A DNA stretch of 64,000 nucleotides, taken from Rhizophagus irregularis. Lineage: Eukaryota. The translations under genes and the position numbers were made by a program. The stretch spans positions 62,001 to 126,000 of the forward strand of contig NC_089431.1 of the NCBI RefSeq assembly GCF_026210795.1, read 5' to 3'. The notes beneath the pieces are model-generated. The model saw nothing but the letters and a program-made list of their open reading frames with translations. It ran no database searches and was not told the DNA's origin. Of this stretch, positions 790 to 27,369 are shown one piece after another. The first letter of the stretch is position 1. Each line of letters begins with the position of its first letter.

Positions 790-959
790 ATTACTAGTCA
801 TTGCTATTTATCATCTCGTTTGGACATTGTTCCAGTTGGTTCGATTCTAACAAACAACAAAATAAAATAGAAAATCGCAGATGTTTGTTAGAAATAAGAA
901 AATCATTTCGAAGTTATTACTTTCAAAATGTTTGACATGAAATCTTAGGATCTAAAAAA

Positions 960-3900
960 TAAAGTAAAATGAACATTAGTAGAACGTTCGTTAAAGAAGA
1001 ATAAAAAAAAAATTATAAAGAATTTTGAAGATATACCTTCAAATTCTTTCGTCCAGGAGCCAGAGAAAAAAACCTTACAGAAAAAAACAACTGAAACGTT
1101 AGTAAACATTTCACAAATTAAAAAACATGAAAGAATTTTGAAGGAATTTTACCTTTGAAATTCTGTCCAGAAGCTGTAAACCTGCAAAAAGTAAAAAGAA
1201 AAGACAAACGAAATGTTAGTAAATGTTTCGTTAAACATTAAAAAAAATTAATTTCGAAGGTAAATACCTTCGAAATCCTGAAAAAATCTCCAAGTCTGAT
1301 TCGTCTAACAGGGCGGACATGCATTATATCACAATGTCGATCACTTGCCGATCATGATATAAGTGATATCACGTTAAATTTGAAGCTTTATTCCAAGCAA
1401 TAAATGTTCTGACAATTTATGTTAAATTATTTTATTTAATAGTTTCATTTATCAATAAATTAATATAAAAGTATTGTAGCAAAATAAGGTGTGTTTCAAA
1501 AGTTAGATTTTATGTCAAATTTTCAATAATTAATATATATGCTATATATATGCTGATCATCTGCTAACGTGACTTTGAAGCTTCGGGCAAAGCCACAGAT
1601 CTTTGGGTGAAACTTGAAACTTTTACAGTATATTATTTAGGTATTCAAGAATCAATGGCTAAAATAAACCTGGATAATTTTTGATAACCCAAAAGTTATC
1701 ATTAAATAAATGTTTACAATTATTGTAAAATTAATATATGTCTGATATTTGACAAATTCTTTATGAATTATTTTAAGAACTAATTTATTAACAATAAATA
1801 AAATAAAGTAAATAAAATCGAAATTTTTTACATTATTATGTAGAATTTGTGAAAAAACTAATTTAATGGTATTTTTTTATGTGATAATATTGGACAAGTG
1901 ATCAGTAAAATGATCAGCAATTTCATGATAATATGGGGATGTCCGCCCTGTTAGTTCGTCTAAAGAAGTCCAGCGTCCCTATATAAAGAAGAAAGAACGT
2001 TAGAAACGTTCTTTGAAAAAAAAATAAATTTTAAAGTTTTGCAACGAGAGTTGCGAAACTCACCATTTACCCGTTTCGGGAACCTTGGAATACCGAAACC
2101 TACAATAAAAAAGAAAAATGAAACGTTAGCTAACGTTTCATTTAAATAAAAACAAAAAAAAACAGAATTTCGAAGGTTATCTTAGAAATTCTGTTCAGGA
2201 GCGTCCAGAGAGCCGTGTTCCTACAAAATACAAAAATGAACATTAGAAAATGCTTTGTTAAGTATAATTATTAAAAAAAATTTTTTTCAAAGGTTTCACC
2301 TTCGATATGGGAGACCGAACTCATTTTTGGCTTCCTTTACCTAAAAAAAATAAAATACGAACGTTAGTTAACGTTCGTTTAAATAAAAAAGAAAAAAAAT
2401 TTTCGAAGGTTTTACCTTCGATATGGGAGTCCGGAATTCGGTTTTGGATTCCCTTGCCTAAAAAAAAAAGGAAATACGAACATTAGTTATGTTCGTCAAT
2501 AAATTAAATAAAAAAAAATTTTTTTTTACAAAGATTTTACCTTTGTATGGAAAAACCTTTATATGGGAGTCCAAGTTTTCAGCTTCCTTTATCTAAAAAA
2601 AAAGGAAATATGAACGTTAGTTACGTTCGTTAATAAATAAAAAAGAAAAAAAAATTTCGAAGGTTTTACCTTCGATATGGGAGTTCAGAACTTGTTTTTG
2701 GATTCCCTTGCCTAAAAAAAAAGAAATACGAATGTTAGTTAATGTTCATTAATATAAATATTAAAAAAAATAAAATTTTCAAAGGGTCTTACCTTCGATA
2801 TAGGAGTCCGGAATTTGTTTCGGATTCCTTTGCCTAAAAAAAAAGAAACGAAACGTTATAAACTAAACATTTCGTTAATAAATTAATTAAAAGAAATAAT
2901 TTGAAAGTTTTACCTTCAAACAGAACTTTCAAATAGGTCCGGAACATACCTTCAGCGTTCTGGACCTATAAAATACAAAAACAAACATAACTAATGTTCG
3001 TTAAAGTTAAATTATAAAAAAAAAAATATTTCGAAGATTTTTACCTTTGAAATAAACGTTCGGAGCCGTTCTTCAGCGCCCAGGACCTAAAAACATGAAA
3101 AACGAACGTTAATTAATTTTCGTTAAAATAAAATTAAAAAATATTTCAAAGGTAAACTTTACCTTTGAAATAAACATCTGGAGCCATTCTTTAGCGTTCA
3201 GGACCTATAAAACGTAAAAACGAATGTTAATTAACGTTCGTTAAAATAAAATTAAAAAAATATTTTGAAGGTAAACTTTACCTTCAAAATAAATATCCGG
3301 AGCCATTCTTTGGCGTCCAGGACTTATAAAACGTAAAAACGAACGTTAATTAACATTCGTTAAAATAAAATTAAAAAAAATATTTTAAAGGTAAACTTTA
3401 CCTTCGAAATAAACGTCTGGAGCCATTCTTCGGTGCCTAGGACCTAAAAATATAAAAAATGAACGTTAATTAACGTTCGTTGAAATAAAATTAAAAAAAT
3501 ATTTCGAAGGTAAACTTTACCTTCGAAATAAACGTCCGGAGCCGTTCTTTGGCGTCCAGGACCTATAAAACGTAAAAATGAATGTTAATTAACGTTCGTT
3601 AAAATAAAATTAAAAAAATATTTCAAAGGTAAACTTTACCTTTGAAATAAACGTCCGGAGCTGTTCTTCAGCGTCAAGGACCTAAAAATATGAAAAACGA
3701 ATGTTAATTAACGTTCGTTGAAATAAAATTGAAAAAAATATTTCAAAGGTAAACTTTACCTTCGAAATAAACATCTGGAGTCGTTCTTTGGCGTCCAAGA
3801 CCTATAAAACGTAAAAATGAACATTAGCGATGTTCGTTAAACAAAAATATAAAAAAAAATTTCAAAGGTAAAGGTTTTACCTTCGAAATAAGAGTCCAGA

Positions 3901-4200
3901 GCCATTTTTTGGCGTCCAGGACAAGAAAATAATAAACCGAACGTTGGACAACGTCCGGTATATAAAAAATATTAGTTTCGAAGTTTTACCTTGGAAATAG
4001 AGTCCGGAACTGGTACTTTCAGCGCTCTGGACTTACAAAAAAAAAAAAATAAAATGAACTTTAGCTAATGTTTCATTAAATTTTTTTTTTTTTGAAATGG
4101 AGTTCAGGATGTACCTTTTGTGTTCTGGATTAATAAAATGAACATTTTCTAACGTTCTTTAAATAATATTAATATCAAAGTTTGAAATAGAGTACCTTCG
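960..4200 (-). repeat. Micro-exon/structured-intron array (~119-bp unit, 42-nt exons at 3045-3801)
   Basis: Minus-strand unit: tttatAG|gtcctggacgccaaagaacggctccggacgtttatttcgaag|GTaaag. Donor lies in the palindrome tatttcgaaggtaaactttaccttcgaaata (3500-3530). Branch site lies in palindromes such as tgaaacgttagctaacgtttca (2119-2140). Confidence 0.8.
1305..1954. mobile_element. Non-autonomous TIR element inserted into an exon of the micro-exon array
   Basis: TIRs ctaacagggcggacat / atgtccgccctgttag. Flanking direct repeat ttcgt(c); TSD length is ambiguous (5-6 bp). Confidence 0.8.
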
Positions 4201-6306: not shown

Positions 6307-9029
6307 AACCACCCTAGTGTCACCTCCAAAAAATGGTAGTCGGATTCTAATCTGCCAGATTACATGTGATTTCAAATGCTAATTTTTGATACTTTCATGA
6401 GTATTTAATAATTTTCAAATTTATTTTTTTAAACACATTATTACACATATTTCAAATTGCCAATATGTTTCTGAAATTTAATACTACTATTCCCAATATC
6501 TTATATTCTTATTAAAATCTTTCCAAGTTCTCAGCATAATTCTACAATTTTCAAGTGCTACAATATCATTATTCATTTTTTCCAATAAATTAAAATTAGA
6601 ACAAATATTTTTTAACTTTGACTTGTTATGTGACTCTTCTAATAATTCTTTGGTCTAAGAATTAATATTTACATCAATAAAAATTAAAAATTACTTAGTT
6701 ATATGCAATATTCATGTATACCTTATTTAGTATTTCTTGCAAATAATTTAAATCAGTTTCATACATATGCTGTTTATCGTCACTTTCAATAATATAATTA
6801 TCTTCATTTTCAGTATCTTGAGTTATTGGAATGTTTAGAATTGTATGATCTGGTGTATTCTCTAAGCAAAATACATTTACCAATTCACCTTCATAGGAGG
6901 AAATTAATGGATAATTTCCATTTCTCTGTACCTTTAAATAAATAATAAATATTAGATATAGTACTGTATAAATATAAAAAAAGCAAACCACTTACTTTTT
7001 TAAAAAATATTCCATCAACTTTCTCAACAGAATTAACTAAATGTTTACACAAAAAAACCTGGCTTTTTATATATGCAGGACATGAACATATCCACTTAGC
7101 TGTATTTGTTAAATATTTGCCATTTAATTGAGTAGGTTTTTTTTCATGTTGTTTTCATTCCTTTTTGAAATCTTTTCATCATGGTACAGAATAACGTCCT
7201 TGCTGTAGTAATTGAATTCAATATAACTGCTGGTTAATGACTTTTTTAACAAGAATAAAATATAAATAATCATGCTTAATATGCCACCAATGAGATTCAA
7301 CAACCATTGTTGTTTTAATATGACTAACATTTTTGTTAGCTGCCTGCGCCCATAAAATCCATTTGCCTTTAGAATACCACTCCTTCCAAAAATAAACCAC
7401 AATCGAAGCAAATCATTGTTCTTACAAAATTGTATTATTTCTCCTACACATTCTTTCCAAATTTCATTTGCATTTGTAGTAAAAGTACTGGCAAAATGAT
7501 CCAGAATTTGAATTATTTACAATTTTCCAGTTAACATCTATTGTTGAACACTCTTCATGTGCAATCTTTGGATTATAAGAATGGTAAAAACTTGTTTTAT
7601 TGGATGATAAACGTTGTTTAATAGCACGTTGAATATGCCAAACACACAATTGCAAGTGAGTTTCAGGCCATACTGTTTGTGCTGCATTGATTTCTGCAAA
7701 ATCTTTATCAGTTAAAATGTAAGGAGTATCTTTTAAATTTCGTTCTTTTAAAGCTTGCATCCACTGTATAAGAACTCCAGTTATATTTCGATTTTTTTCA
7801 GTTGAAATTAGAAGATAGCTAAGAGGAAACCCAGTACCATTAATTACACCCATAATAGCATATAGTTCCCATACCAAATTATTGGTATTGTATGTTGCAT
7901 CAATTTCAATTGCATCAAATTTATTATAAAGTAATTGGTAAAATAATACTGTTAAAAATCCTAGAGCAGGCATAGAAGTATTGAGATTATCTAATATAAT
8001 TTCTTGATTAAATTCTTAATAAATATTTTGTTGACAATAAAAGATCAGGATCACGACAGTATGTTTTATGAGATTCAATGGACCACCAATAATAGGTTTG
8101 TTGAACTGTTATATTCTCATATCCATTAATATGATTTTCTTGAATCTGGTGAAAAATTTCAGAAACGGAACAATTAAGATTATCTTGGATAAAGTTCTTA
8201 ATTTCAAGTGTTGTCTTAACATGCTTTGGTCGGAAATGTAACATTTTGTGAGAATATTCAACATTAATTAAATTCAAGTTTGAAAATATTTCTATATTAA
8301 TTATTCCTTCACAATGATAGCGTTCTAAATATGCAGGTGTATCTCTTTGTTTGTCTAAATCATGATATTTTGCTCTTCGTTTTCCAAGTTCAATTCGGCA
8401 ATTACAGTAGTATATTATATGAAAAGAATTTTCTTTTTGAATTTTCTTATAATAAACCCATGAATAGCCATCATCTTCTGAAATAGAATTTATTATACGA
8501 TGACCAATTTCATGTTCAATATTTTCTTTGTCAGATTCATTGTTTTCTAAAATAGCATCATGAAAAGATGATAATTCAATATTAAAAGCTAGACTTAACT
8601 CTTCATTTTCTCCTTCATAAAATTCATTAACATTTTTTAAAGAAGTTAAAGAATTGTATATAATTTCAGTAATATCCAAATAATTAATTACGTCATATTG
8701 TGGCTTATTTTTTGTAAAACGGGTAGTCTTTATATTATTTTGGCAACGTAAACACTTTTTTAAAGCAACACCTTTTTTATTCAGAAACTCTTCATAATTT
8801 CGAAGAACATAACACCCTTTACAGACTTTATTTTATTAGCTTGACATAATTAATAAAAAAATAGTTCATTGAAATGAAGAGAAAAAAACTGATTTTAAAA
8901 TTGATCAAACAAATCGTGCATCAAAATAGATGATCGACATGAGATTACCAAAAATTAGTATCTGAAATTATGTGCAACCGGTAAATTAGAATCCGGCTAC
9001 CATTTTTTAGAGGTGACGCTAGGGTTGTT
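6307..9029 (-). mobile_element. Mutator-like element (MULE) with ~90-bp TIRs and 10-bp TSD
   Basis: TSD ataggccaat at 6297-6306 and 9030-9039. TIR aaccaccctagtgtcacctccaaaaaatggtagtcggattctaat matches the reverse complement of 8940-9029. Confidence 0.92.
6500..8850 (-). pseudogene. Disrupted MULE transposase with SWIM zinc finger
   Basis: MULE DDE motifs DATYNTN...LTDKDFAEINA...LCVWHIQRAIK (7464-7973) and SWIM-like WICSCPAYIKSQVFLCKHL (~7035-7110). Broken by stops and frameshifts; ends approximate. Confidence 0.85.
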
Positions 9030-9837: not shown

Positions 9838-10846
9838 TAAAGCTCTAATCGGTCTGGCTCTAATCTAGCAATCTGGACTAAAAATTCAGATTGATCCAGT
9901 CTGGATTGATGCTTCAATCTGGACCAAAATATTTGGTCTGATCTGGTCCAGTTTTAGATTATAAATTTAATCCAGACCAAATTTTATGGATTGGATCAGA
10001 CTGGATCGAATAAACGTTTTCACAATAGTTTTATATTAAAACCATTGTGATTGTAATTATTAAATAAAAAAAATGTTGTGAAACATTTTTTTAATATATT
10101 ATTATAAAAAAATGTTTACGCAACTTTTCTATAATTAATTTAATGAAAAAATGTTGTGAAAACATTTTTTTAAAATATTATTATAGAAAAACGTTTTTGC
10201 AACATTTTTATAATTATTTAATAAAAAATGTTGCAAAACGTTTTTTCAAAGTAATTTTAACTAGAAAAACATTTTTGCAACGTTTTTTCAATTAATTTAA
10301 TGAAAAAACATTGCAAAAACGTTTTTTTAATATATTATTATAGAAAAAACATTTTCGCAATGTTTTTATAATAATTTAATGAAAAAATGTTGCGAAATGT
10401 TTTTTCAAAGTAATTTTAACTAGAAAAACGTTTTCACAACATTTTTTCAATTAATTTAATGAAAAAACGTTGTGAAAACATTTTTTTTAATATATTATTA
10501 TAGAAAAAACGTTTTTGCAACGTTTCTATAATAATTTAATGAAAAAACATTGTGAAACATTTTTTCAAAGTAATTTTAATTAGAAAAACGTTTTCACAAC
10601 ATTTTTTTAATTAATTTAATGAAAAACGGTGTGAAAACATTTTTTTAATATATTATTATAAAAAAAACACATAACATTTTTTTATTATAAAACCAGACTG
10701 GACTGGACTAAAATAACTGGTCCAGTCTGGTCTGGTCTCAGATTCTCCTTTTAATATAAACCAGACTGGACTGAAATGAACTAATTTTTCAGTTCAGTCA
10801 TGAGTTACTTCTCAACCCGGACTAATCCAGACTATTTAGAGCTTTA
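9838..10846. mobile_element. Non-autonomous hAT element with internal palindrome array
   Basis: TIRs taaagctctaa / ttagagcttta. 8-bp TSD atttatcc (9830-9837, 10847-10854). ctgga/ccaga subterminal repeats; interior 10020-10690 of tandem aaaacgttgcgaaacgtttt-type hairpins. Confidence 0.92.
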
Positions 10847-11338: not shown

Positions 11339-13373
11339 TAGAGTTCCGAACAGGTTGATCAAATTCAGGTAATCTGACAGTTTGACCTGAATTTATCAGA
11401 TCAGGTTTAGCAATTGCAATTCAGCATCAGTTCAGGTTGTAACATCAATATAATCTGAATGACCTGTTGATTTGAAACTATAATTTTATATAATATAAGT
11501 AATGGTATTATAATTCACTTTTTTATATTAATTTTATATAATAAAAGTGAGTTGTGATATCAGAATTCACTTTTTTATATTGATTTTATATAATAAAAGT
11601 GAATTGCGGCATCAGAATTCACTTTTTTATATTGATTTTATATAATAAAAGTGAATTGCGGTATCAGAATTAACTTTTTTATATTAATTTTACATATAAA
11701 AAGTGAATTGTAGTATCAGAATTCACTTTTTTATATTAATTTTACATATAAAAAGTGAATTGTAGTATTGGAATTCACTTTTTTATATTGGTTTTATATA
11801 AAAAAAGTTAGTTGTGGTATTATGATTCACTTTATATGATTTTAATATAAAAAAATGAATTGCAATATTTTCAAAAAAAATGTTTTGCACCATTTTTTTT
11901 TTATATTTTAATAAAAATCCTGAAAATTTTCAGGTTTCAGTTCAGGTCAGATCAAACAGATAACCTGATATGATCTGACCTGACTTGAAAAAAAATTTCA
12001 GGTCAAGTTTATCAGGACCCCGGAAAATACTTATATAGGTAAGGTCCCAAAAATATTTTTTATTAGTAGCTCTAAGCATAGGTTTTTACTATGATCGCTA
12101 AGCATTGTTGATATCTAACCTTAAAAATTATATAAAAATAAGCAAATCAATCTTCTAACCTAATTAAATTTTTATTATAACACATATAATTTATAAAATA
12201 TATTTATTAATTTAATATATTTTATTAAATCCAATTTTAAATATGATCAATACATTGTGAAGCTAAACTAAACATAATATACAAGTAGATTAACAATATT
12301 CAATTAATAAAGTTAATAAACAGTAAAAGAAAAATTCGAAATTAATACTATTACAAAAAATGTAAATTTCTCTATAAGTATTATACTTACACCCATAAAA
12401 ATTAATATGTAAGTAGTATCGACCTTGCTGAACAATTTTCAATTAATTTAGAAAGTCGATTTCATTTGGCTAAAGTGGTGTAATTACGCTCTGAAGTTGT
12501 AAACGGAGAAATGAAAAATTCGGAAGTTAGTACCGTTATGAAAAATGCACTTTTCTCCATAAGTATTATACCCACACTCATGAAAATTAATATATAAGTA
12601 GTTTCGACCTTGCTGAACAACATTCAATTAATTTAGAAAGTCGATTTCATTTGACTGAAGTGGTGTAATTACGCTCTGAAGTTGTAGACAAAAAAGTGAA
12701 AATTTTAAAAGTTATTACCATTATAAAAATATGCTTTTCTATATAAATATCATACTTAGCCTTATGAGAATTAAAATACAAGTAGATTTAACTTGCTGAA
12801 CAACCTTACTTAAGCATAAAAGACAATTTGATATAACCAAAGTGGTGAGTAGTGAAATTATATTTTAAAGTAAAACATATTTACAGTAATTTTATTTAAC
12901 AAAATAAATAGTATCTTTTTAATTTTTATTAAACTCAATGTATTATTTTTAATATAAAATTACTATATTATACATGTTGAAAGATAATTAATAAAACATT
13001 GAAAAAAAAACTGAAATTTCATCAAAAAAAAATTTTTGTTTATGTATTTATATAAAATTGTGAAATGTAGTACAAAATCAACACTCACCGTTAGTGAAAA
13101 TAAAATAAAAATTAATTATAAATTCAATATATAATATTTTAAAAAGTTCTATAAATATGAAAAATAAGCAACTAAAAACTCTTAGTATTTTAAAATAATA
13201 CCAAAAATATGCAATTTAATTATCTTACATAGTATAAAATTTTCTCAAAATTAAGCATTATAAAATTCTTACATCATAAAATTTTTCTATGTTGGCTAAG
13301 CACCTTGATACCTTACATATATAAGTATTTTCCGGGGTCCTAGTTTATCAATTAACCTGATTTGACCTGACCT
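11339..13373. mobile_element. hAT-like non-autonomous element with ~52-bp hairpin array, right end degraded
   Basis: Starts tagagttccgaacagg. cctga/tcagg subterminal repeats at both ends. About 7 units of aaaagtgaatt...aattcactttt at 11500-11870. Interrupted by 12014-13341. Confidence 0.65.
12014..13341. mobile_element. Non-autonomous TIR element with 8-9 bp TSD (MULE- or hAT-like)
   Basis: TIRs aggaccccggaaaatacttatata / tatataagtattttccggggtcct. TSD agtttatc(a). Internal ~180-bp tandem repeats at 12340-12850. Confidence 0.9.
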
Positions 13374-14594
13374 AATAATTAGTATTATATAATTATCTTG
13401 GCTTCTAATAATTCAATTTGAACAAACTTTTTTTTGTTTTATAAAGCTAGATTTATAGAAATAAATGAGTGCTATAAATTAAAAAAAAAGTTTATTAAAA
13501 TTGGATTACTAGAAGTCAAGATATATGGGCTGATTTGTCTACCTTTAATTAAAATATTGATTTTATTACATTTTTATTATACAAAATACTATATAATTTA
13601 CAGTAAATTAAGGATGAGTATTAAAAAATTTTTATTTAATGTTATTATACTATAATTTGGTGTAAATATTTCTTTTAAATTAATATAATTCTTAGCACTT
13701 ACTATATATATTAAAAATTTGTATCTCATCTTTAAACGTGAATATCTTTAGATTCAATAATCCAATCGGCAAGCTCTTTTTTCATTCATATAAACCAGAT
13801 CAAATGCTTTCCAAAAAGTCTAAATTTATAAAAAATGGATCAGTGAATCCCAAGATATTTGCATTTAAGCATGTTAAAAAGTTCAACTCTCAACTTTAAA
13901 CGTAAATATCTCCAGATCTAATAATTCAATTGGCGAGTTCTTTTTTTGCCTATAATATCAGCAAGTTTGAAAAGTGTTGATTTACACCAGTATACGCATT
14001 GATCGACACTAGCTAGTTGTTCAACGCGATTTACAATATTAATCAACACCCGTATATTAGAGTTTACTAACACATAATGTTAATATACGTGTTATTCAAT
14101 TCTAATGTGTAGTTTAATATATTATGCATTGTTGTTCAATGTGCTGTATATTAACACATACTATATATATATACAACTATTTTAATTAAATTAAATTATA
14201 TTTATTTTTATTCACCTTAGGAATCGAACTAAACATCTCCTTATACTATTAATTATCTTACGATCTAACCACTGTACTATTTAATTTAAGTATATATTAT
14301 ACAGTCAACTCTTCTTATAGCGAATTTTGATATAACGAATTTCACAATAAAATGAACCTTTAATGTAATACAGAAATTTATATATGAAAAATTTTTTGTT
14401 ATACCAAATTTTACTAATTAAATGTGGTATAACGTATAGTACATAAACCCATATATATAAATGACCTTTTTTGTAATAAATTTTTTTCATAACGAACTTT
14501 TTTCTGAATATAACGAAGATTTTTACAAGATGATTTTTACCATAAGGGATAATCTGACTTTCATTTTACATGAAATTTCTTTTCAAATATAGTA

Positions 14595-17500
14595 CATCAG
14601 CAAGTTTGAAAAGTGTTGATTCACACCAGTATACGCGTTGATCAACACCAGCTAGTTGTTCAATGCGTTTTACAATATTAATCAACACCCGTATACTGGA
14701 GTATATCAACGCTTAATGTTAATATACACGTCATTCAACTCTAATGTGTAGTTCAACACATTATGCATTGTTGTTCAACGCCGTATATTAACATATATTA
14801 TATATATTTTAAATTAAATCAAAATTATATTTATTTTTACTTACCTTAGGAACTGAACCAAACACCTCAACTTACACTATTATTTATCTCACGATCTTAA
14901 CCACTGCACTATTTAATTCAAGTATATATTTATATATATTAAACTTAATATTTAAAAAAAAAATTATTTCAGCAATTGCGTAATGTACTCTATATCTATC
15001 ACGTGATACTAGAGTAATAATTACCGCTGCGGCAGTGCTGCGGCTGTGGTATAGCAAAAAAAAAATTAAGCTTTTTTTGGCAAAGCTTAATTTTTTTTTT
15101 GCTTCGTTCTTCCCCTTCCCTTTCGTTTTTCCATTACCCTTCGTTCTCCCTTCATCCCTATAAAAAGTTTTATCCAAAAACTATGTAAACTCCGTAATAT
15201 AAGGTCATTAATTCCTGAAATATGAGCCTTATACGGAAAAATGTTGAACTTTTGGTAAGTTTCGCAACGAAACTGCGAAACTACTTTTTCATTCTTTAAC
15301 GAAACGTTTTTTAACGTTTCAAAAATATTATTCTTTTTTTTTTTAATCAGAATGTTGGCTAACGTTCTGATTTATTATTTTTTTATTAATTTTTTAAATC
15401 GGAACGTTGGCTAACGTTCTGATTTATTATTTTTTTTTAATTTCTTTAATCGGAACGTTGGTTAACGTTCCGATTAATTTTTTTATTTTCATTTTTTATT
15501 CGGAACGTTGAAAAATGTTCCAAAATAATATTTTTTTTTTTAATTCTTTAATCGGAACGTTGGCTAACATTCTGATTATTTTTTTTATTACATTTTTTTA
15601 ACGAAACGTTGAAAACCGTTTCGTAAATAACTTTTTTTTTTCATTTTATTTAATTGGAACATTGACTAACGTTCTGATTGTTTTTTTATTTCCTTTTTTA
15701 ACGAAACGTTGAAAAACGTTTCATTTAATCTTTTTTTTTAATTTCTTTAATCGGAACGTTGGCTAACGTTCCGATTATTTTTTTTATTACATTTTTTTAA
15801 CGAAACGTTGAAAACGCTTTAGTAAATAACTTTTTTTTCATTTTATTTAATCGGAACATTGACTAATATTCCGATTATTTTTTTATTTTTCCTTTTTTTA
15901 ATGAAACGTTGAAAAACGCTTTCATTTAATCTTTTTTTAATTTCTTTTAATCGGAACGTTGGCTAACGTTCTGATTATTTTTTATTACATTTTTTAATGA
16001 AACGCTTGAAAACGCTTTCGAAATAACTTTTTTTTTCTTTTTTTATCAGAATTCGGCTAACGTTCGATTTTTTTATTTTTTATTCTTTTTTTAACGAAAC
16101 ATTTTTAACGCTTTCATTAATAACTTTTTTTTCATTTTTTTTAATCAGAACATTGGCTAACGCTCCGATTTACATTTTTTTTCTTGTTTTAATGAAACGC
16201 TTTTTAATGTTTTGTTAATAACTTTTTTTTCATTCCTTTTAATCGAACGTTCTAACGCTCCAATTTTTTTATTTTTTCTTCTTTTAACGAAACGCTGAAA
16301 AACGTTTCTTGAATATTTTTTTAATTTTTTAATCTAACGCTTTTTAACGCTCCAAATAATTTTTTTTAATTTTTTTAATCGAACGCTATAACGCTCCGAT
16401 TTTTTCATTTTTTAATAACAAACGCTAAAAAACGCTTTCAAAAATTTTTTTTTAATTTTTTGTTTTTTAACGAAATGTACCTAACGTTTCAATTTTTTAT
16501 TTTTTTTTAGGACCGCGGCTTTCTGGATGGCTCACGGACGGGAATTTTGAAGGTAAACCTTCAAAATTTTTTTAATTGTTTGTCTTTAACGAAACATTTC
16601 TAACGTTTCGATTTTTTGTTTTTTTTATATCCAAGGCTTTGCTGATGGCGGCTCACAGATCGGGAATTTTGAAGGTAAACCTTCAAAACTTTTTTAATTG
16701 TTTGTCTTTAACGAAACGTGTCTAACATTTTGATTTTTTGTTTTTTTAGGACCGCGGCTTTCAGATGGCTCACGAACGGGAATTTTGAAGGTAAACCTTC
16801 AAAATTTTTAATTTTTTGTTTTTAACGAAACGTATCTAACGTTTCATTTTTTCATTTTTTTAGGACCACTTCCTGGATGATTCACGGACAGGTAAAATTA
16901 TTTTTTTTTTAATTTATTTTAACGAAACGTGACTAACGTTTCGTTTTTCTTTCTTTTTTAGGTCTGCAGATTTCTTTTTCTAAACGGGATTTCGAAGAAC
17001 TTTAATGTTATGGTAAGTTTCACAACGAAACGTTGTGAAACTTCATTTATTTTTTAATTTTTTTTTTAGAAACGTTTATTAACGTTTCTTTAAATTCTTT
17101 TTGTAGGTCTTTTTTTTGGGAAGCAGAAAAAAGGGTAAGTTTTGAAGCGTAATTTTACGCTTCAAAACTTTTAAAAAAAATTTTTTTTTTAGTTTTTTAT
17201 ACTAACGTTTCCTTTATTTTTTTTGTAGGTTTTTTTTGGAAAACGGAGGAAAGGGTAAGTTTTGAAGCATTTTGCTTCAAAACTTTTTAAAAAATTTTAT
17301 TTTTAAAAATTTCTTTTATAAGGAAACGTTTCTAACGTTTCCTATATTTTCTTTGTGTAGTACCTTCGGCGTGTTCAAACTTCGGATCTTGGATATTGTA
17401 AGTTTTGAAGGGTTTTCCTCGAAATTTTAATTTTTTTAATTTTTTATTAGGAAACGTTTACTAAATGTTTCCTTTATCCTTTTTGTAGGATCGGAAAGTT

Positions 17501-18786
17501 TGGAACGGAAGAATGATTGGGTAAGTTTCGTAATGTTTCATTACGAAACTTAATTTTTTTTTATTAGGAAACTCTTACTAATGTTTCTTTTATTCTTTTT
17601 TTAGGTTTCAGGAAACTTAATGTTAGAAAAGGGTCTTTAAACGGTAAGTTTCGTCAGAAACTTCCATTTTTTTTTTGTCTTTTTTTCTTTAAGATACATT
17701 CTAATTGAACGTTTCTCTTATTTTTTGTAGGTTCGGCCAACCTCTGGGACTTGAAATTTTGGAAAACGGTAAGTTTCGTACATTTCGTTACGAAACTTCC
17801 ATTTTTTTTTTGTTTTATTTTTTAGTAAGAAACGTTCTAACTGAACGTTTCTCCTTTTTTTATAGGTTCGGTTTCTGGGAATATGGAAATTCAGATAATG
17901 TAGGTTTCGTAACATTTTTTCGTTACAAAACCCATTTTTTTTATTTTTTTAATTAGGAAATGTTTACTGACATTTCCATTTTCTTTTTTTTATTAGGCTT
18001 CAGATTTTGAATTGCGGATAGTAATGGGTAAGTTTCGCAACGAAACGTTGTGAAACTTTATTTTATAATTTTTTTTTTAAGAAACGTTGACTAACGTTTC
18101 TTTTCTTATTTTTGTAGGTCTACAGATTTTCTGGTAGACAAAATGGTAAGTTTCACAATTTTTGCGAAACTTAATTTATAGTTGACTTTTTTTAGGAAAC
18201 GTTTGTTAACGATTTCTTTTTTCTTTTTTGTAGGCTTTTTGAAATATGAATCAGATCGTGTAAGTTTCGTTAACGAAACTTTTAATATTGTATTTTTTTT
18301 AATCGAAACCCCACCTTGTTATGGTTGTGTCACCAGGGGTGCTATATCAACGGAAATTTAGTACGTTGATCGCTTAAAAATCTGTGGCAATCCAATTATA
18401 ACAAGAGTTTTAAACATTTGACAATTTACATTACTGAGAAATATCAATTTGTAGTGTAGTTAGATAGATAATGAATGTATTTTTATTGTACTATTACTAC
18501 TATATATATAAATAAATTTACAATATTTTACGATTAATAAAATTTATATGTTGCTATACGCATTTTTAATATCAATATACGCGTTTTTATACAATGTATA
18601 CACGTTTTTAAACTATCGTTGTTTTACTATGTGTAGTTTTACACTTAAATGAGTGTTGATTTACACGTTTTTCAACGTTTTTAAGTGGCGTTGATTGACA
18701 AAGGGTTCGTTTCCCTACGTTTTTTGGTGTTGAGCAACACATGGCATTTTTCAACACTTTATACGCCTGTTTAAAACTTGCTGATG
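14595..18786 (+). mobile_element. 4.2-kb non-autonomous TIR element (TA TSD) whose cargo is a micro-exon/structured-intron array
   Basis: TA|catcagcaagtttgaa ... ttaaaacttgctgatg|TA (15/16 TIR match). No transposase ORF inside. Confidence 0.88.
15255..18282 (+). other. Array of about 15 micro-exons (25-51 nt) separated by hairpin-structured spliceosomal-type introns; probably non-coding
   Basis: YAG acceptors after T tracts at 16510, 16749, 16863, 16961, 17106, 17228, 17360, 17488, 17604, 17730, 17865, 17996, 18117 and 18233. Each exon is followed by GTAAG/GTAAA (one GTAGG), and CTAAC/CTAAT-like sites lie ~20-30 nt upstream of each AG. Confidence 0.75.
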
Positions 18787-19468
18787 TAATTTCACACATT
18801 ATTTATATTTTTATTATAATAATAGATAGATGTTCTTTATGTTTCGTTCTTTTTGTTTTATTTTACATATTTCCTTATATAAAAATGCAAAAGGTAAACT
18901 CAAAAAAAAACTTGACAAAGTTGAAGACCCTAAAAGTTAAGATGAAGTTCCCAAAAAAAAATGAAAGTCTTTTACTGCTATGCAAAAAAAAGAAGTCTGT
19001 TTAAAAAAAATAGCAACATCTTTTTTAAAACAAAAAGACTTAGCTAATTAATATGATATTAGTGAAGGAATGATTATTTCAGCATTTTTATGAGCCATTG
19101 TGCTGTGGATAGTATTTATATCGAAGCTGGATTAAAGCGTGAAGAAAAATACCTTTTCCTATTATTGAAGTAGCCTTAACCCTTTGGGTAGATAATGCAA
19201 TTCAGGCTAATCTTATCATTACTAATAATATTCTTTCAACCAAGGCTTTAGAATTTGCTTACTTGTGCAAAGAAGAAAAGTTTAAAGGATTTAATGGATG
19301 GGTTGACAATTTTAAAAAATGCTACAATTTAAAACAATATAATATTTATGGGAAAGCGGCAAGTGCGCAATTTCAGAATCTTGAAGCAATGCATAAAAAT
19401 CTTCACCAAATTTTAAAAAATTATAACCCTAAAGACATTTTTAACAGGTCTTTTTTGGAAGATGCGGC

Positions 19469-20944
19469 TAGGGCTCCGATCAGTTCAGTTTGGTATGGTT
19501 TTTGCCAAAACTGAAACCGAACCGAATTGATCGGTAACGGTATTATTAATTACCGAAACCGATCGGTTTCGGTAATCATCAATACTGAAACTGACCGGTA
19601 ATTACCAAAAACTAAACCGATTTACCAATTCATTATCGTGGTTCGTTTTTAACGTTTTCGTAACATTTTTATTAAAAAAACGTGCGAAAACTTTTTTTTT
19701 GGTGAAATTATTAATAAAAAACATTTTCGCAACATTTTTTGTTAAAACAATTGAAAACGTTGTGAAATGTTTTTTATTATTAAATTACTTGATAAAAAAT
19801 GTTTTCGCAACATTTTTTGGAAAAACAATTAAAAACGTTTGCGAAAAATGTTTTTTTTTATGAAATTATTAATAAAAAACATTTCACAACGTTTTTTGTT
19901 CAAATAATTAAAAATGTTGCGAAAAACGTTTTTATTTGCTAAATTACATGTTAAAAAACATTTCGCAACATTTTTTAACTATTTTAATAAAAAAATGTTG
20001 TGAAACGTTTTTTTATTCATTAATTTAATTGTTAAAAAACGTTTCGCAACGTTTTTTAACTGCTAAAATAAAAAAACGTTGCAAAATGTTTTTTTATTCA
20101 TTAAATTACATGTTAAAAAACGGTTTGCAACGTTTTTTAACTATTTTAATAAAAAAACGTTGTGAAGCGTTTTTTTATTCATTAATTTAATTGTTAAAAA
20201 ATGTTTCGCAACATTTTTTAACTGCTAAAATAAAAAAACGTTGCAAAACGTTTTTTTATTCATTAAATTATATGTTAAAAAATGTTGCAAAACGTTTTTT
20301 TATTCATTAATTTAATTGTTAAAAAACGTTTCGCAACGTTTTTTAACTGTTAAAATAAAAAAATGTTGCGAAACGTTTTTTTATTCATTAAATTACATGT
20401 TAAAAAACGTTTTGCAACATTTTTTAACTATTTTAATAAAAAAACATTGCGAAACATTTTTTATTCATTAATTTAATTGTTAAAAAACATTTCACAACGT
20501 TTTTTAACTGTTAAAATAAAAAAACGTTGCAAAACATTTTTTTATTCATTAAATTACATGTTAAAAAACGTTTTACAATGTTTTTTAACTATTTTAATAA
20601 AAAAATGTTGCAAAATGTTTTTTTATTTATTAATTTACATGTTAAAAAACGTTTCGCAACATTTTTTAACTATTTTAATAAAAATGTTGTGAAACGTTTT
20701 TTTAAATAGCTATTTATCGAAACTGATGGTAAAATTTACCGAAACTGATCGGTAAACTTATCGAAAGTTTCGGTTTAGTAAATCGGTTTGGTAAATCGCA
20801 AAACCAATACTGAAACTGCAGTTACCAAAACTGATCAGTAATTTACCGAATGATTCGGTATTGGTAAATTGCAAAACCGAAATCGATCTGATACCGAAAC
20901 TGATCAGTTCGGTTCGGTATTTACCGATACCGATCAGAGCCCTA
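19469..20944. mobile_element. Non-autonomous hAT element with internal palindrome array
   Basis: TIRs tagggctccgatc / gatcagagcccta. 8-bp TSD gatgcggc (19461-19468, 20945-20952). accga subterminal repeats; interior of tandem aaaaacgtttcgcaacgttttt hairpins. Confidence 0.95.
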
Positions 20945-21129
20945 GATGCGGCCTAGTCATACAATATCTAATAGTCAAGTTATTGGAATAAAACAGTCAA
21001 AAGATTGTGTAACTATTTTGCTTACCTGTAACGTAACTGAAAGTGAAAAATTGTATCTTTGTTTATACACAAATATGAAAATCTCCAAGTTCTTAAAAAT
21101 ATTGATAAAAAAACACTTCCAGTTGATTA

Positions 21130-22081
21130 CAGTCAACTCTCTTTATAGTTACACATTTGGGACAGTCCATATTTGGTGATTATAAAGAGATGTGACTATA
21201 TAAAAAATTTCTTATATTAGTATATCATAATTCTGGCCAATAATTTTAGTCAAAATTATACTCAAAACTTTATTGTATTGTAACTCCGCCAATATTAATC
21301 ATAGAGAGATGATCTTACCGCCATTCGATTCGTCTTGATAAGACAGTTCTAATGGTATAAAATACATCGAAATCTAATCACTAGATTAATTTCCAAAATT
21401 AAAAAAATATTAATGGTTTTTGTGTAATAACTCTGCCAATATTAATTCTAGAAAGACGATCCTACCGCCATTCGATTCGTCTTGATGAGACGGTTCTAAT
21501 GGTATAAGATACATCAAAATCCAATCACTAGATCAATTTCAGAAATTAAAAAATATTAAATGGTTTTTAAGTAATAACTCCGTCAATATTGATCACAGAG
21601 AGATGAGCTTACCACCATTCGATTCGTCTCGATGAGGCAATTCCAACGAGCTATAAATCGTCTTTTTACAATCACTAGGTACCGAGAAATTTAACAAAAT
21701 GTTAAATGGCGCAGTAAACGTAAATTAAGAAATATAATAATGCCGATACTTAACATTTTGTTGAATAACTCATCAGCCAGTGATCGCAAAAGGATAAAAC
21801 TACCACCATTCGAGTAATCTCAGTGAGACGATTCTAACAAGCTATGATACATCTTTGTACAATTATTAGATGCCAAGTTATTTAATATATTCTTTATATA
21901 ACTGTGATTATAAATAATTCTTTTTAATATAAGATTTTTGAGGATAGGTGTGATAGTGACTATAGATAGATTGTGACTATATAGGATAGTTTTTAATAAT
22001 AAAGTGTTTTGAACATTCAACTAATGTGACTATATAGTAGAATGTGACTATAACGGGAGTGACTATAGAGGGAGTTGACTG
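21130..22081. mobile_element. pogo/Tc1-like non-autonomous element (copy 2)
   Basis: TA|cagtcaactc ... gagttgactg|TA. Homologous to 5353-6166 with one extra ~140-bp internal repeat. Confidence 0.93.
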
Positions 22082-23968
22082 TATTACTGGAATACTAAAA
22101 GTTGGATGCAGGTATCAATTTAAAACTAATATCTCAAGAAATTTGATTCCAAAATGAGAAATCAAGGTCATAAAATTCTTCTTCTCATTGATAATGCTCC
22201 AACCCATGCCCTATACGAAACTACATATCTCATAAATATTACTATCAAATATCTTCTTCCCAATACTACCGCGCACATACAACCTTGTGATCAAGGAATT
22301 ATTAATAGTTTCAAAATAAGTAATAAATTACTTCAACTTATAAAAATTCTATATTATAAAACATACTTTAATTAATGATTATTTTATTTTTTAGGCGTAA
22401 TATCGAAAGTTATTTTTACATAATCAAGTTAAGGCATATGATAAATATAATGAATATGGCATTAATCCTGTTGAAATTAATATTAAGAAGTGCGTTGAGT
22501 ATGTTGCGCATGTATAGAATAATGTTGCACAAGATACGATTGAAAATTGTTGGATGAAGGCGGATATTTTGCCTAAAATTGATGAAAATGAAATTATTAT
22601 GAACAATAATACTGATGCACAAATTTATTCCATGCATATAAAAGAATTGGAAGATATTCAAGTGTTAATCGATAAACTTAATCCTGAAAATCCCTTTAAT
22701 GCTAAAGAATTTATTCAATATGATAATGATGAAATTACAACAGAAATGCTATCTAATGAAGAAATTCTCAAAGCAGTTATTCCTAATAATCAAAAAAAGG
22801 AAATAGAAGAATCTTTGGATCCTTTACTATTAATTATTCATAGCGAAGTTATTGAATATTATGATAAGGTGATTTTATATTTAAAACAGCAAGAAAGTGA
22901 TTTTGATATGAAAAAGGAAGAATTGAAATAGTTAAAAAGCTAAAAAAAGAAGCTTTAAAAAAGCGTTTTATTTCTACAAGGCAAATTAACCTTAATAGTT
23001 TTATTAACTGTTAATAGTAAATGAATGAGATTATTAATATTTGGAGTTTTAATAAATTAGTTATATAACAGAGGCTTTTGTATTCTTATATATAATTAAT
23101 AAATTCACAAATTGCACTACCTTGCAAAAAAAAAGAATGAGATTATTAATTAAAAATTTTTTTTTACATAACAAAAGTTTAATTTTTTTGTAATACGAAA
23201 TTATAATATACATATATATACATAATATAATATAATACTTTTTGAAATATATATAATAATACTTTAAAAAAAATTTTAAAATTGCTTTAATTAATAAAAT
23301 TTAGATATTAAAATATTTAATGAATTACTTAATATTATGTAAAATCTTCATTATATGATATACCAAATAATCTGTAGTGCTATACTGAATAATCTGTTAT
23401 GGTATTACCAAATTTTCTTATAATGAAGGCCTGATCGGCTCAGACGTCTAATTCGTTATAAGAAGAGTTGACTGTATATATTAAAATTAATATTTAAAAA
23501 AATATTATTTTATACTAAGCATTGCGTAATGTACTCTATATCACATGTATCACGTGATAATAGATTATTAATAATTACTGCTGCAGACTGCAGTATGGCA
23601 AAAAAAAAATTAAGCTTTTTTTGGCAAAGCTTAATTTCTTTTTTTTCACTCTTTCTCCCCTTCCCTTTCTCTTTCATTATCTCCTTTCCTTTTTGCTCTT
23701 CCCTTCTTTTTCTCTTTCATTATCCCCTTCTCTTTTCGTTCTTTCTTTTACTTGTTATTATTTTCTAAGCAGCTCCTATAAGAACTATTGAAAAAAGAGA
23801 TGAAGATTAAGTAAAGCATTGGGAACATTAGAGCATTTAGAATGGACAAAGTTGTCATGGTAAAGAACATTAATACTATAAAAAATACATTATATTTTCA
23901 ATTTCTCATTATTTATTCCTGTTTTTGAATCTCTGAAAGTACTCGTATTTTCATTTTTTTTCAGTATA

Positions 23969-24677
23969 CAGTCAACTCTTAATATAACGAAATTGGCATC
24001 TGGGCTGATACACTGATTAAAAACTAATATATCAGGTAGCAGATATGTATCAGATATGTACCTGATATGTGTAGTATTAATGCTGAAAATTGGGTACCCG
24101 ATATGTGTAAGATATGTGTAAATATATATATCATATACATATCGGGTACTGATATGTATATGATATATAAATGATATGTAGACGATATATATATTTACAC
24201 ATATCTTACACATATCGGGTACCCGATTTTCAGCATTAATACTACACATATCAGGTACATATCTGATACATATCTGCTACCTGATATATTAGTTTTTGAC
24301 TAGTGATAAGACCTTCGTTATAGGAATATTCGTTAATATGATGGAAAAATCTGGTATAACTCAGAAAATTTTTGTATATTATGAATTTATGATATATTGT
24401 CGTATAATAATTGTATCTTATAATGCAAAAACGCAAGTTACATAAAATATCTTCGTTATATTGAAAAAAAAATCGTTATAAAAGAAAATTTATTATTAAA
24501 AAGAGCATTTTTCATATATAGTTTATAAAATTTACTTTGTTAAACAGTATATAGCATTTAATTAGTAAAATTCGGTATAATGAGATTTTTTTCATATGTT
24601 AAAATCTGTACCATACTGAAGATCTGTTATATTGTAAAATTCATTATATCAAAATTCATTATAAGAAGAGTTGACTA
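23969..24677. mobile_element. pogo-like MITE related to the 14302-23474 element
   Basis: TA|cagtcaactcttaatataacgaa ... ttcattataagaagagttgacta|TA. Interior resembles 14302-14560 in reverse orientation. Confidence 0.8.
24011..24305. mobile_element. CACTA-like fold-back MITE
   Basis: cactg...tagtg ends, 3-bp TSD ata, ~120-bp near-perfect inverted arms built of gatatgt repeats. Confidence 0.85.
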
Positions 24678-25699
24678 TATTTATAAAATAAATAGAAAAT
24701 AAAAAAATTTTTGAAGCTGGATCTCGTATATTTTAATTTTTTTTTGCTTATAAAATTTTGTTTGTTTATAATAGTTTTATTTATAAAAATTTATTTTGAA
24801 AGTAACCGTAAAAAAAATCCTCAATTCCTTATAAAACTTCATAAAAACATGCAAAATATTTATTTACAAATAAAATTTCTTTAACTATTATAGAAAAGAT
24901 CTTAAAACAGAAGAATGAAAGTGTAAAAATGTAAAAGTATTAAAACATAAATCTCAATATAATAATATTTAACATAAATTTGCTTTTTTTTTCCTGTACA
25001 CCTGCAAAAATAATGTATAATGTATTATATAATGTGGTAAATAATGTTTTTGAGATAAAATTCTGTCCTTATAATAAGCGGTAAAATTGAAGCATGGATA
25101 GTGCAATACATTGTAATACACTGTGATAATTAAATCCTAACTAAATTCTAAACATAACAATGTATAAGGATGTACATTGCATACTGGTAGCTGTATCGAA
25201 CTGGTATATACTGTATTAGTATATACTGTATTAGTGTATTGTCACAGTTTAGAATATTTTCAATCATTTTAAGTTTTTATTGAAAAATAAAAAATTATTA
25301 TTCCATGAAATTTATAATCAAAAAAGTTATTTAAAATCAGTATGAAACTTTTATTTTAATAATAAAATTGGTATCATACTATGTTTGATAAATTTCATTT
25401 TCTTAGCCAATTGAAAATCTATAATAGATAAATCTACTTATTGAATAAAGTTTTTAATAGTTTCATAAAAGTTTGGTATTTTAAAATATTATGGCATTTT
25501 ATGTATCTGATGTCTTTTTTTTAACCATATTTCTTAAAAAAAAGATGATAGACATGGATAAAAAGAATGCTTGTACTATTAGATAGGTAAAATCATGAAG
25601 AATTTATTAATATGAAAGTTTTGATCAGATGAAAGAAATGATCTGACTATATATCAGATCAGATTAGATTATTCTAATGTTTGACCTCAAAAAAATTTT

Positions 25700-26290
25700 T
25701 TTTTAGCTAACTGGACAGGTTTACTTTTGATTCTTTTTTCTCTGAACTTTTGCACTCTTCTAAGAGTAACCTTTTAGCTTCTTGAACTTTAAAGAAGGTA
25801 TATTATTTTGTTTCATTACTAATTTCATTAAAATTTAGTGATGGCTCATTATAGTAAGTCTTTTCAGTTTCAGTTTATTTCATTTTTTTGTTATTTCATT
25901 TTTTTCATTATTTAAGTTTTGACTGCATGGCCTGGAATACCGGTAAGTTTCAGTTTTCTTTTTATTTGTAATCTTGTTTTTCATTAACTGAATTCATTTT
26001 ATTCTTATTATTTAGGTTTGAAACTTATCAGCTTAGTGATAATTATAAAGGGAGAGAATTTTTTTATCTTAAAAAACAATACTAATATTCGTTCTTTTAC
26101 TCTCTTTTGTTAAGATTTAAAAGAAATTGAAACAGGCCACTTGTGATAAAATAAGGTACTGTTTCAGAGAGTAGGATTTTGTTTGATATTGTTTTTTTGT
26201 TTAAGAACATCTACTAACATTCTTTTCTTTTTTAGGTTCTTTTTTGGCAATATTGGTGTGGATATGATCAAGAGTTGGTAAATATCCCAA
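25700..26290 (+). other. Degenerate micro-exon array
   Basis: Successive short exon-like blocks such as ttag|tgatggctcattata|gtaagt, taag|ttttgactgcatggcctggaataccg|gtaagt and ttag|gttc...gagttg|gtaaat, with ctaat/ctaac branch motifs. Confidence 0.5.
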
Positions 26291-27369
26291 TGCATATGAC
26301 ATCAAAATATAAATTTGCATTTCCTCTATGTAATATATGTCAAACTGCAGGAAAATTTTTTTTTGGAATAATTGAATCAAAACTAATAGTCGAAAAAGAA
26401 AGAAAGATTGTTAATATTTTGAAATATAAACGAACATATAATTGCAATAAAAGTATACAATTTCATTTTATACTTTCATAATATTAAATATAAAAATTTT
26501 TGGCCAAGATTAAGGATAATTCTGGCTAAAATTATGTTTGTTCGTTGTTATTCAATACTCCCACCTGTAAGCTTACATATTATGTTAAACACACTTTTTA
26601 ATTGTTCCGGCCTTATCAATTATTATATTTGACTGATCTCGTAGAAAATTCTTTCACTAATTTTATAGATTGATACTGTAAAATATAAATTATAAGAAAT
26701 ATTTGTGTATAATGTTTCTAGCATGACGAATATACCTACAAGTAATAATACGATAATTTATAAAATAAATTGTGAAGCTTTATATTTATTATGATAAAAC
26801 ATCTAATATACCGTATAGTAATTATAATAAAATTAAATGTTAATTTATAATTTTTAATACTATAGAAAGTTAGAATTTAAATTATATTTTGTCTTTAATA
26901 GATTTATTTATTTATTGATAGATCGATAACAATTCGGAATACTTAAAAAGAATTCTAAAAAAGATTTTTGATCGTTAATTTTAGATTCATCTAATGATAA
27001 GATTGGTCAATGATTTTCACTAAGTGCAAGAAAATTTTTTTTCAAGATTTCAAAAATTCTTTTCGGAGTCAAGTTATCTTAATTTATTTTGTGCTACATA
27101 CCGGAGTTACAATACTAAGTAGCCATCGAATAAATTCATTGAATTCTTCTATTGTCAAAACACCACATGATTGTAAATTCACGTATCAGAATGTTCTCAA
27201 TTTCACAGATGAAAAATTATTATTAATCTTTACCAAGTAGTATGTACCTTTGAATTGTTATTTCAATCAAAAAGTATATTTTTTTTGGAAGTAGAACTGT
27301 TAGATTCTTGCCTTAATAAAAGTTATGCTCCAACTCCCTGTAAAAAATTTTATCTGTAATAAATTTTTT

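What the first reader, a model, noticed from the sequence alone, without database searches (positions are those of the whole stretch)
16511..18282. Covarying stems at 5' splice sites and branch points
Seen: donor stems differ in sequence yet stay paired: ttttgaagGT-aa-accttcaaaa (16545-16566), aagttttgaagcgtaa/ttacgcttcaaaactt (17137-17170), aagtttcgtaatg/cattacgaaactt (17523-17551) and aagtttcg-ttaa-cgaaactt (18262-18281). Branch stems also switch: aacgaaacg/cgtttcgtt, aggaaacg/cgtttcct, agaaacg/cgtttct. Established: yeast U2 pairs with the CTAAC branch sequence, and structure over splice signals modulates splicing. Inference: either structure is under selection, or a palindrome-correcting process such as template switching keeps the arms matched.
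Basis: partly seen in the sequence, partly recalled or inferred. Interest (0 to 1): 0.8.

Follow-up and report, generated by a model that had tools for sequence, protein, structure and literature searches.

The report
Hairpin-caged intron arrays in fungal transposons
A transposon-like element in what is likely a root-symbiotic (arbuscular mycorrhizal) fungus carries a chain of about fifteen tiny non-coding exons and intron-like units whose splice signals sit in paired hairpins; the pairing is real, recurs in dozens of related loci and likely slows splicing of the element's RNA, but splicing itself was not seen.

Summary
The quoted stems are all present (15 perfect inverted repeats in the 1.8 kb against 0.3 in shuffles). 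They belong to a tandem array of ~120-nt units (micro-exon, GT donor, hairpin, U-tract, hairpin over YTAAC, U-tract, AG) inside a 4.2-kb element with terminal inverted repeats. A second array lies at 900-4200 (-), and 29 of 32 non-redundant metagenome loci hold at least two such units. Exons are non-coding. Splice signals persist while loops vary, so the units likely are or were U2 introns. No spliced read was found, with little power. Best reading: structured non-coding leader introns of DNA transposons, kept paired in active lineages and decaying in inserted copies. Public Rhizophagus irregularis gene models built on them look spurious. No description found in ten literature searches.

The parts
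14598..14611 (+). left terminal inverted repeat of the carrying element, preceded by AT
   Evidence: 13 of 14 match to the right end; the same left arm recurs at 13959
15159..15166 (+). TATA-like box after a pyrimidine tract (putative Pol II promoter, inferred)
   Evidence: sequence
15191..15237 (+). hairpin in the putative first exon; the most deeply covered spot in RNA reads from related copies
   Evidence: (z -3.0 for 15160-15270)
15255..16510 (+). long first intron-like unit: GTAAGT donor with hairpin, then 24 branch-type hairpins at ~50-nt spacing without donors or acceptors, ending in TAG
16511..16790 (+). three recent duplicate units (exons 42, 39, 41 nt; introns 16553-16635, 16675-16749); donor at the inner end of the stem (stems 16545-16566, 16667-16688); the usual acceptor of the first intron is altered
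16791..16961 (+). introns 16791-16863 (donor stem 16783-16804) and 16892-16961 (branch stem from 16921; no G-C donor stem)
17013..18233 (+). ten units with the donor just 5' of the stem: introns 17013-17106, 17135-17228, 17255-17360, 17398-17488, 17521-17604, 17644-17730, 17769-17865, 17900-17996, 18028-18117, 18146-18233; exons 26-39 nt
   Evidence: branch A 22-27 nt from the intron end
18260..18310 (+). last donor with a perfect 20-nt palindrome (18262-18281); no complete branch/acceptor follows
18311..18340 (+). short reading-frame remnant with P-x-C-x-x-C; a like motif ends the second copy of the element near 26320 (possible coding relic, inferred)
   Evidence: no family identified
18770..18783 (-). 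right terminal inverted repeat, followed by AT; right arm 74% like that of locus L036, which also holds an array
900..4200 (-). second array of the same anatomy (17 parsed introns, many 42-nt exons)

Best explanation
The stretch is a tandem array of non-coding micro-exons and intron-like units with a hairpin at each donor and each branch point, carried inside a repeated element with terminal inverted repeats; it is likely the spliceable non-coding leader of a DNA-transposon transcript, whose hairpins are predicted to cover the U1 and U2 sites and so would slow splicing. Shown: anatomy, non-coding exons, excess covariation, retention of GT, YTAAC and AG while loops vary, spread over many loci and at least three kinds of element ends, absence from five ordinary introns of the window. 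Inferred: Pol II transcription from the TATA-like box; splicing by the major spliceosome; pairing kept by selection in active element lineages, with new inner arms probably supplied now and then by fold-back copying; neutral CpG decay of inserted copies such as this one; a role as a splicing brake on a downstream transposon gene.
For: Stems found by pairing alone still carry splice signals: 61 of 78 donor-in-loop stems have a loop starting with GT although loops are 3-16 nt; 52 of 59 stems of the other class follow GTA/GTG; 150 of 181 branch stems hold YTAA and 159 of 181 have the first AG 20-28 nt on. In branch-only tracts CTAA falls to 10 of 22 and 2 of 23. Outer branch pair, anchored on the inner core only: 73 of 126 Watson-Crick against 56.8+-4.1 by within-array permutation (1/5000), slid controls null; matched double CpG changes 15 vs 6.5+-1.9 (0/5000), unmatched 4 vs 5.6. 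Pair count on 46 segments: 25 two-sided changes vs 6.2+-2.0. L016 has a branch stem of quite different sequence in three successive introns. Stem over the branch in 14 of 36 array acceptors, 0 of 26 elsewhere in the window. Exon lengths mod 3 are 33/35/43 of 111; stops in all frames. Predicted unpaired probability of the branch A is 0.16 in both donor classes, and of donor +3..+6 is 0.17 in one class. Reading-frame remnants follow the array in L014 and L039. Close copies decay without compensation.
Against: No GT..AG joint among the 15 listed joints (4 more not shown) from 559, 614 and 515 reads and 44 contigs laid on 14900-17270; only 10, 23 and 15 reads were >=99% alike and 89-98% ran on unlike, so power is low, but intron parts of related copies are present in poly(A) reads. 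No G-U excess: 23 vs 26 A-C at CpG singles, 5 vs 8 at other pairs, 26 vs 20 in close copies; one search gave 23 vs 8 for donors and 25 vs 51 for branches (with register errors). Donor CpG covariation is borderline (7 vs 4.8+-1.1, 160/3000), and core covariation loses significance when three arrays are dropped (4 vs 2.2, 315/3000), though the outer pair holds (46 vs 36.8, 10/3000). Units are paralogues, so cells are not independent events. Modules are amplified without their splice partners. No transposase was identified for the carrying element. Loci were found with a CTAAC-bearing pattern, which inflates branch conservation somewhat.
Confidence: 0.5

Rival explanations
1. The hairpins are a DNA-level trait: a palindromic minisatellite in transposon interiors, made and lengthened by template switching or kept for a DNA-binding or cruciform role, grown from an ancestral exon-intron unit whose splice signals are relics.
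For: Strand-symmetric folding energies; no G-U preference; several perfect palindromes with 0-2 nt spacers; inner arms of new sequence pair more than chance (69 vs 41.7+-5.1 and 61 vs 51.0+-2.3); neighbouring elements hold intron-free palindrome arrays with a like AACGTT core and 40-52 nt period; branch-only and acceptor-only tracts exist; template switching is reported to create and maintain hairpins (PMC8794818, passages).
Against: No excess of double changes among close copies; spacers under 3 nt 14/61, 4/51, 44/162 against 10.0, 7.7, 41.2 expected; unpaired GT, the branch YT and the AG at a fixed distance are retained across arrays whose exons have diverged, which symmetry alone does not explain.
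Confidence: 0.3
2. The caged introns exist to stall spliceosomes and feed the RNAi pathway (self-limiting element), or conversely to load many exon-junction marks and escape silencing.
For: Predicted occlusion of U1 and U2 sites; unspliced parts of related copies in poly(A) reads; stalled spliceosomes trigger siRNA production in Cryptococcus (PMC6643885, passages); 41% of R. irregularis small-RNA loci lie in unannotated regions (PMC8647823, passages); tRNA-like B-box modules lie in or against the arrays in 14 of 32 clusters.
Against: No small-RNA data were examined; nothing here links the arrays to silencing; the B-box module is absent from the array of this finding.
Confidence: 0.12
3. A host transcript for intron-derived small RNAs (mirtron-like or snoRNA-like).
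For: Non-coding exons with structured introns, as in snoRNA host genes (recalled); one donor class has a hairpin starting at intron +3.
Against: Arms are 7-17 bp, short for a Dicer substrate; no Rfam match at gathering score in the window; only sub-threshold matches in five loci.
Confidence: 0.05
4. A decayed gene for a repeat protein, one 14-residue repeat per exon.
For: Many exons of the second array and the first of this one are 42 nt; five R. irregularis gene models join such exons, four more.
Against: Lengths mod 3 random; stops in 21 of 40, 22 of 53 and 21 of 53 exons in the three frames; the models switch among all three frames and the five looked up are singleton clusters.
Confidence: 0.03

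Closest known systems
U2-type spliceosomal introns with internal structure (yeast zipper and downstream stems; PMC12350175, passages)
   Same: GT, YTAAC branch, AG; stems proposed to affect splicing
   Different: Yeast stems lie between the signals and shorten distances; here local hairpins overlap the donor and branch themselves, in tandem units with non-coding micro-exons
Introner-like elements and symmetrical stwintrons of Hypoxylaceae (PMC8469720, abstract; introner-like elements otherwise recalled)
   Same: Families of sequence-similar, structured fungal introns that multiplied
   Different: Those are dispersed at new positions in host genes with 45-55 nt terminal inverted repeats; these are head-to-tail exon+intron units inside DNA elements, with two short local hairpins
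Template-switch-generated hairpins (PMC8794818, passages; PMC10710096, search listing only)
   Same: Near-perfect Watson-Crick arms, inner extensions of new sequence
   Different: No excess of instantaneous compensation among close copies here
Non-autonomous TIR DNA transposons with internal palindromic arrays; unclassified repeats of R. irregularis (PMC11075540, PMC8647823, passages)
   Same: Inverted termini, many copies, nesting, CpG decay
   Different: The internal array has full splice-signal geometry; the words intron and palindrome do not occur in PMC11075540, nor intron and hairpin in PMC8647823
Multi-intron snoRNA host genes (UHG/GAS5) and tailed mirtrons (recalled)
   Same: Non-coding exons, conserved feature in the introns
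   Different: No snoRNA family match; hairpins too short; mobile-element context

Membership tests
U2-type spliceosomal intron | GT donor, YTAAY branch, YAG acceptor at host-like spacing | tested here: met
   ordinary introns of the window show like spacing
U2-type spliceosomal intron | removed from RNA (junction reads) | tested here: inconclusive
Introner / introner-like element | dispersed insertion into coding exons of unrelated host genes | tested here: not met
   units are tandem with their own exons in all loci viewed; five ordinary introns lack the stems; no whole genome was available
Non-autonomous TIR DNA transposon | terminal inverted repeats and multiple copies | tested here: met
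Non-autonomous TIR DNA transposon | target-site duplication | tested here: inconclusive
   AT flanks both ends here and in L013; a 2-bp duplication cannot be told from insertion at A|T without an empty site
Non-autonomous TIR DNA transposon | autonomous partner / superfamily | tested here: inconclusive
   no family for the remnants; CACTG/CACAG-type ends in other loci suggest CACTA/EnSpm (assignment recalled)
Template-switch-maintained palindrome | excess of simultaneous two-sided changes between close copies | tested here: not met
   1 of 736 pair cells, 1.4 expected
Template-switch-maintained palindrome | inner arm extension with new complementary sequence | tested here: met
   (0/2000 for both donor classes; not for branch stems, 460/2000)
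RNA stem under selection | covariation beyond array-level relatedness | tested here: met
   (branch); donor borderline; no tree-based test run
RNA stem under selection | G-U tolerated over A-C | tested here: not met
   mixed; neutral decay of dead copies could hide it
Mirtron / snoRNA host | known small-RNA family or Dicer-length hairpin | tested here: not met
Mirtron / snoRNA host | discrete small-RNA product | not testable with these tools
   no small-RNA run was listed
Protein-coding repeat gene | one open frame, exon lengths in multiples of three | tested here: not met

The most novel reading that the evidence does not exclude
Several DNA-transposon families of arbuscular mycorrhizal fungi share a portable cassette of hairpin-caged spliceosomal introns, often with a tRNA-like B-box module, that works as an RNA device: a multi-step splicing brake or spliceosome trap that sets the element's expression or silencing. 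It would be a new class of intron-array non-coding RNA and a new route of intron multiplication (tandem exon+intron amplification).
Probability: 0.25. Interest if true: 0.85.

Novelty: new variant of a known kind. Interest (0 to 1): 0.6.

Why it matters
About a quarter to a third of the R. irregularis genome is unclassified repeat (PMC8647823, PMC11075540, passages); this gives one class of such repeats a precise anatomy. It flags a set of public 'uncharacterized protein' models as probable artefacts. Hundreds of natural variants of one structured intron make two open questions testable: what a hairpin over the donor or branch point does to splicing, and whether compensatory stem changes come from selection or from template switching.

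Tried and rejected
No whole genome was held, so no genome-wide count or empty-site test. Rfam: nothing at gathering score in the window; 9 sub-threshold matches in five loci, treated as chance. No RNA holder listed for the stretch; not used as evidence. A first-exon motif found nothing in metagenome contigs. Unit patterns gave 1 and 0 viral hits and 0 and 3 prokaryote-genome hits; L001 and L052-L054, and metagenome loci L004 and L022, had no units or were GC-richer and were dropped as chance, leaving 48 of 50 loci in 32 clusters. My early argument from spacers under 3 nt failed its control. My early idea of a 14-residue repeat protein failed. Protein searches for spliced forms in unannotated assemblies returned only annotated R. 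irregularis models and one unrelated repeat protein (6 hits; 5 of 8 candidates; 1 of 14); weak as a negative. Splice-site bases showed 0 of 385 differences between close copies against 18 of 1537 in exons, but the count is partly circular and redundant, so not used. The coding remnants could not be named. Five look-ups of earlier findings gave nothing relevant. Ten literature searches found no description of these arrays; the library lacks most subscription papers, and no supplement or repeat library was read, where such elements may be listed.

Full report
Observation. The 1772-nt stretch has 15 perfect inverted repeats with arms of 8 or more, against 0.33 in shuffles and 12 in the 37 kb from 26600 to the end. 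It parses into 14 complete intron-like units of 70-106 nt with exons of 26-51 nt, plus a last donor at 18260 without a full 3' end. Upstream, a donor at 15255 opens a 1256-nt unit filled with 24 branch-type hairpins. The unit at 17135 has the arm of the first kind with the donor of the second, so the hairpin is shared and the donor moved.

Context. The window is 27% G+C, with kinase, subtilisin, F-box, NmrA, MULE and Tc5 frames. Proteins matching the array exons are named Rhizophagus irregularis by their sources, so a Glomeromycotina host is inferred. The array lies between inverted termini at 14598 and 18783, each flanked by AT; this element sits in a Tc5-type element (14302-23474, TA-flanked), which splits a second copy of the same element whose left arm starts at 13959 and resumes at 23479. 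A TATA-like box and a first-exon hairpin precede the first donor. A second array of the same build lies at 900-4200 on the minus strand. Five ordinary introns of the window have no G-C stem, and 0 of 26 branch-acceptor motifs outside the arrays carry the stem, against 14 of 36 inside.

Spread. One branch-stem pattern returned 50 metagenome loci; 48 were kept, in 32 clusters, and 29 of the 32 hold two or more parsed introns. L036 shares the right arm of this element; L013, L035 and L047 have another AT-flanked terminus; ten loci have CACTG/CACAG-type ends. Branch-only and acceptor-only tandem tracts occur too. In L014 and L039 reading-frame remnants follow the array; they could not be named.

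Non-coding. Joined exons of this array have 6, 9 and 5 stops in the three frames. Of 111 parser-called exons 33, 35 and 43 have length 0, 1, 2 mod 3 (the parser made at least 2 errors in 191 introns). Nine public R. irregularis models join such exons, several switching among frames. I did not check what evidence underlies those models, so they are not counted as proof of splicing.

Splice signals. When stems are found by pairing alone, 61 of 78 donor-in-loop stems start their loop with GT, 52 of 59 stems of the other class follow GTA or GTG, 150 of 181 branch stems hold YTAA, and 159 of 181 have the first AG 20-28 nt after the branch A. Loops and exons vary freely. Symmetry does not explain this; selection for splicing in some ancestral or active copies does (inference). 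Part of the branch figure is due to the search pattern.

Covariation. With the register fixed on the inner core, the outer branch pair is Watson-Crick in 73 of 126 distinct units against 56.8+-4.1 when 3' letters are permuted within arrays; slid controls are null. Matched double CpG changes are 15 against 6.5+-1.9 and unmatched 4 against 5.6; non-partner CpG combinations show no matched excess. Pooled tables give 32 matched and 8 unmatched doubles. The pair-count tool gives 25 two-sided changes against 6.2+-2.0 on 46 segments (41 of the 47 segments of one spacer class, six left out for a different register or poor stem, plus 5 from the window; segments were pre-selected for pairing). L016 keeps a branch stem of unrelated sequence in three introns. 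Limits: donor CpG covariation is borderline (160/3000); the core signal rests largely on L036, L047 and the second window array (315/3000 without them), while the outer pair persists (10/3000); units are paralogues.

RNA or DNA level. G-U is not favoured over A-C: 23 vs 26, 5 vs 8, 26 vs 20; one search gave 23 vs 8 at donors and 25 vs 51 at branches. That fits neutral decay of inserted copies and does not exclude selection earlier. Close copies show 62 single and 1 doubtful double change in 736 pair cells, so arms are not being corrected routinely. Spacers under 3 nt are not enriched overall, but inner extensions of donor stems pair far above chance, the pattern described for fold-back template switching (PMC8794818, passages). 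The simplest joint reading is occasional fold-back as the source of new arms, retention in active lineages, and decay after insertion.

Splicing not shown. Three raw-read runs and one contig set were laid on 14900-17270. No listed joint has GT..AG ends at the predicted introns. Only 10, 23 and 15 reads were at least 99% alike and 89-98% ran on unlike the stretch, so most come from other copies; both mate directions are equal. Coverage peaks on the first-exon hairpin and on branch hairpins; one abundant related sequence has an altered branch motif. Folding predicts the branch A mostly paired and, in one class, donor +3..+6 paired, which would hinder U2 and U1 binding (established mechanism; effect here untested).

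Comparison. Yeast zipper and downstream stems lie between the signals (PMC12350175, passages). Hypoxylaceae stwintrons are dispersed with long terminal repeats (PMC8469720, abstract). Papers on Glomeromycota repeats and annotation read in passages (PMC11075540, PMC13465315, PMC10234402, PMC8647823) did not mention such arrays in the passages seen. Stalled-spliceosome RNAi is cited from PMC6643885 (passages). hAT and CACTA assignments from termini, mirtrons, snoRNA hosts and mascRNA are recalled.

Verdict. A real, widespread and apparently undescribed variant of structured spliceosomal introns, amplified in tandem inside DNA elements. Function as a splicing brake is the best guess (0.5); a DNA-level palindromic satellite with relic splice signals remains serious (0.3). 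Interest 0.6.

Noticed in passing
window 795-864 (+); L013 3531-3593 (-), L036 3989-4049 (-), L016 836-897 (+): A ~55-nt tRNA-like module (acceptor-like stem, T-arm, B-box) antisense to the array near its 3' end; ARAGORN calls the L013 copy tRNA-Pro(GGG). Two T-arm variants are G-U on that strand. A second version of different sequence lies in sense orientation inside arrays of 11 clusters; 14 of 32 clusters have one. Absent from the array of this finding.
   Followed up: partly
L014 3120-3190 (+), L041 1711-1781 (+): A near-complete tRNA gene (ARAGORN tRNA-Phe, AAA) inserted antisense within an array.
   Followed up: no
window 1-560 (-): Tandem units with acceptor and polypyrimidine tract but weak or no branch hairpin, like acceptor-only tracts in L005, L028, L045, L049.
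   Followed up: no
window 15191-15241 (+): First-exon hairpin whose relatives are the most deeply covered part in all four runs (summed contig depth 2667 at 15216 in X5), continuing into sequence not in the window.
   Followed up: partly
window 19469-20944: Element with TAGGG termini and an 8-bp duplication (hAT-like, recalled) inside the Tc5 frame, holding a 40/81-nt palindrome array; like arrays at 10068-10666, 11481-11862, 4603-4853 and a 295-nt palindrome at 24011-24305.
   Followed up: partly
window 13959-14301 and 23479-26450: Second copy of the carrying element, split by a Tc5-type insertion; its 3' part has degenerate short introns and ends in a P-x-C-x-x-C frame remnant.
   Followed up: partly
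window 14800-14850 (-): A GTAAGT donor on the minus strand in the element's left arm, in both copies: a possible divergent transcript.
   Followed up: no
window 52154-52778: 19-nt tandem repeat (33 copies) similar to the pyrimidine tract before the TATA-like box at 15102-15150.
   Followed up: no
window 7124-8832 (-): Broken MULE transposase gene.
   Followed up: no
public proteins P0001-P0004, P0006, P0010-P0013: R. irregularis 'uncharacterized' gene models built on these arrays; several switch reading frame between exons, so they are probably not real proteins.
   Followed up: partly
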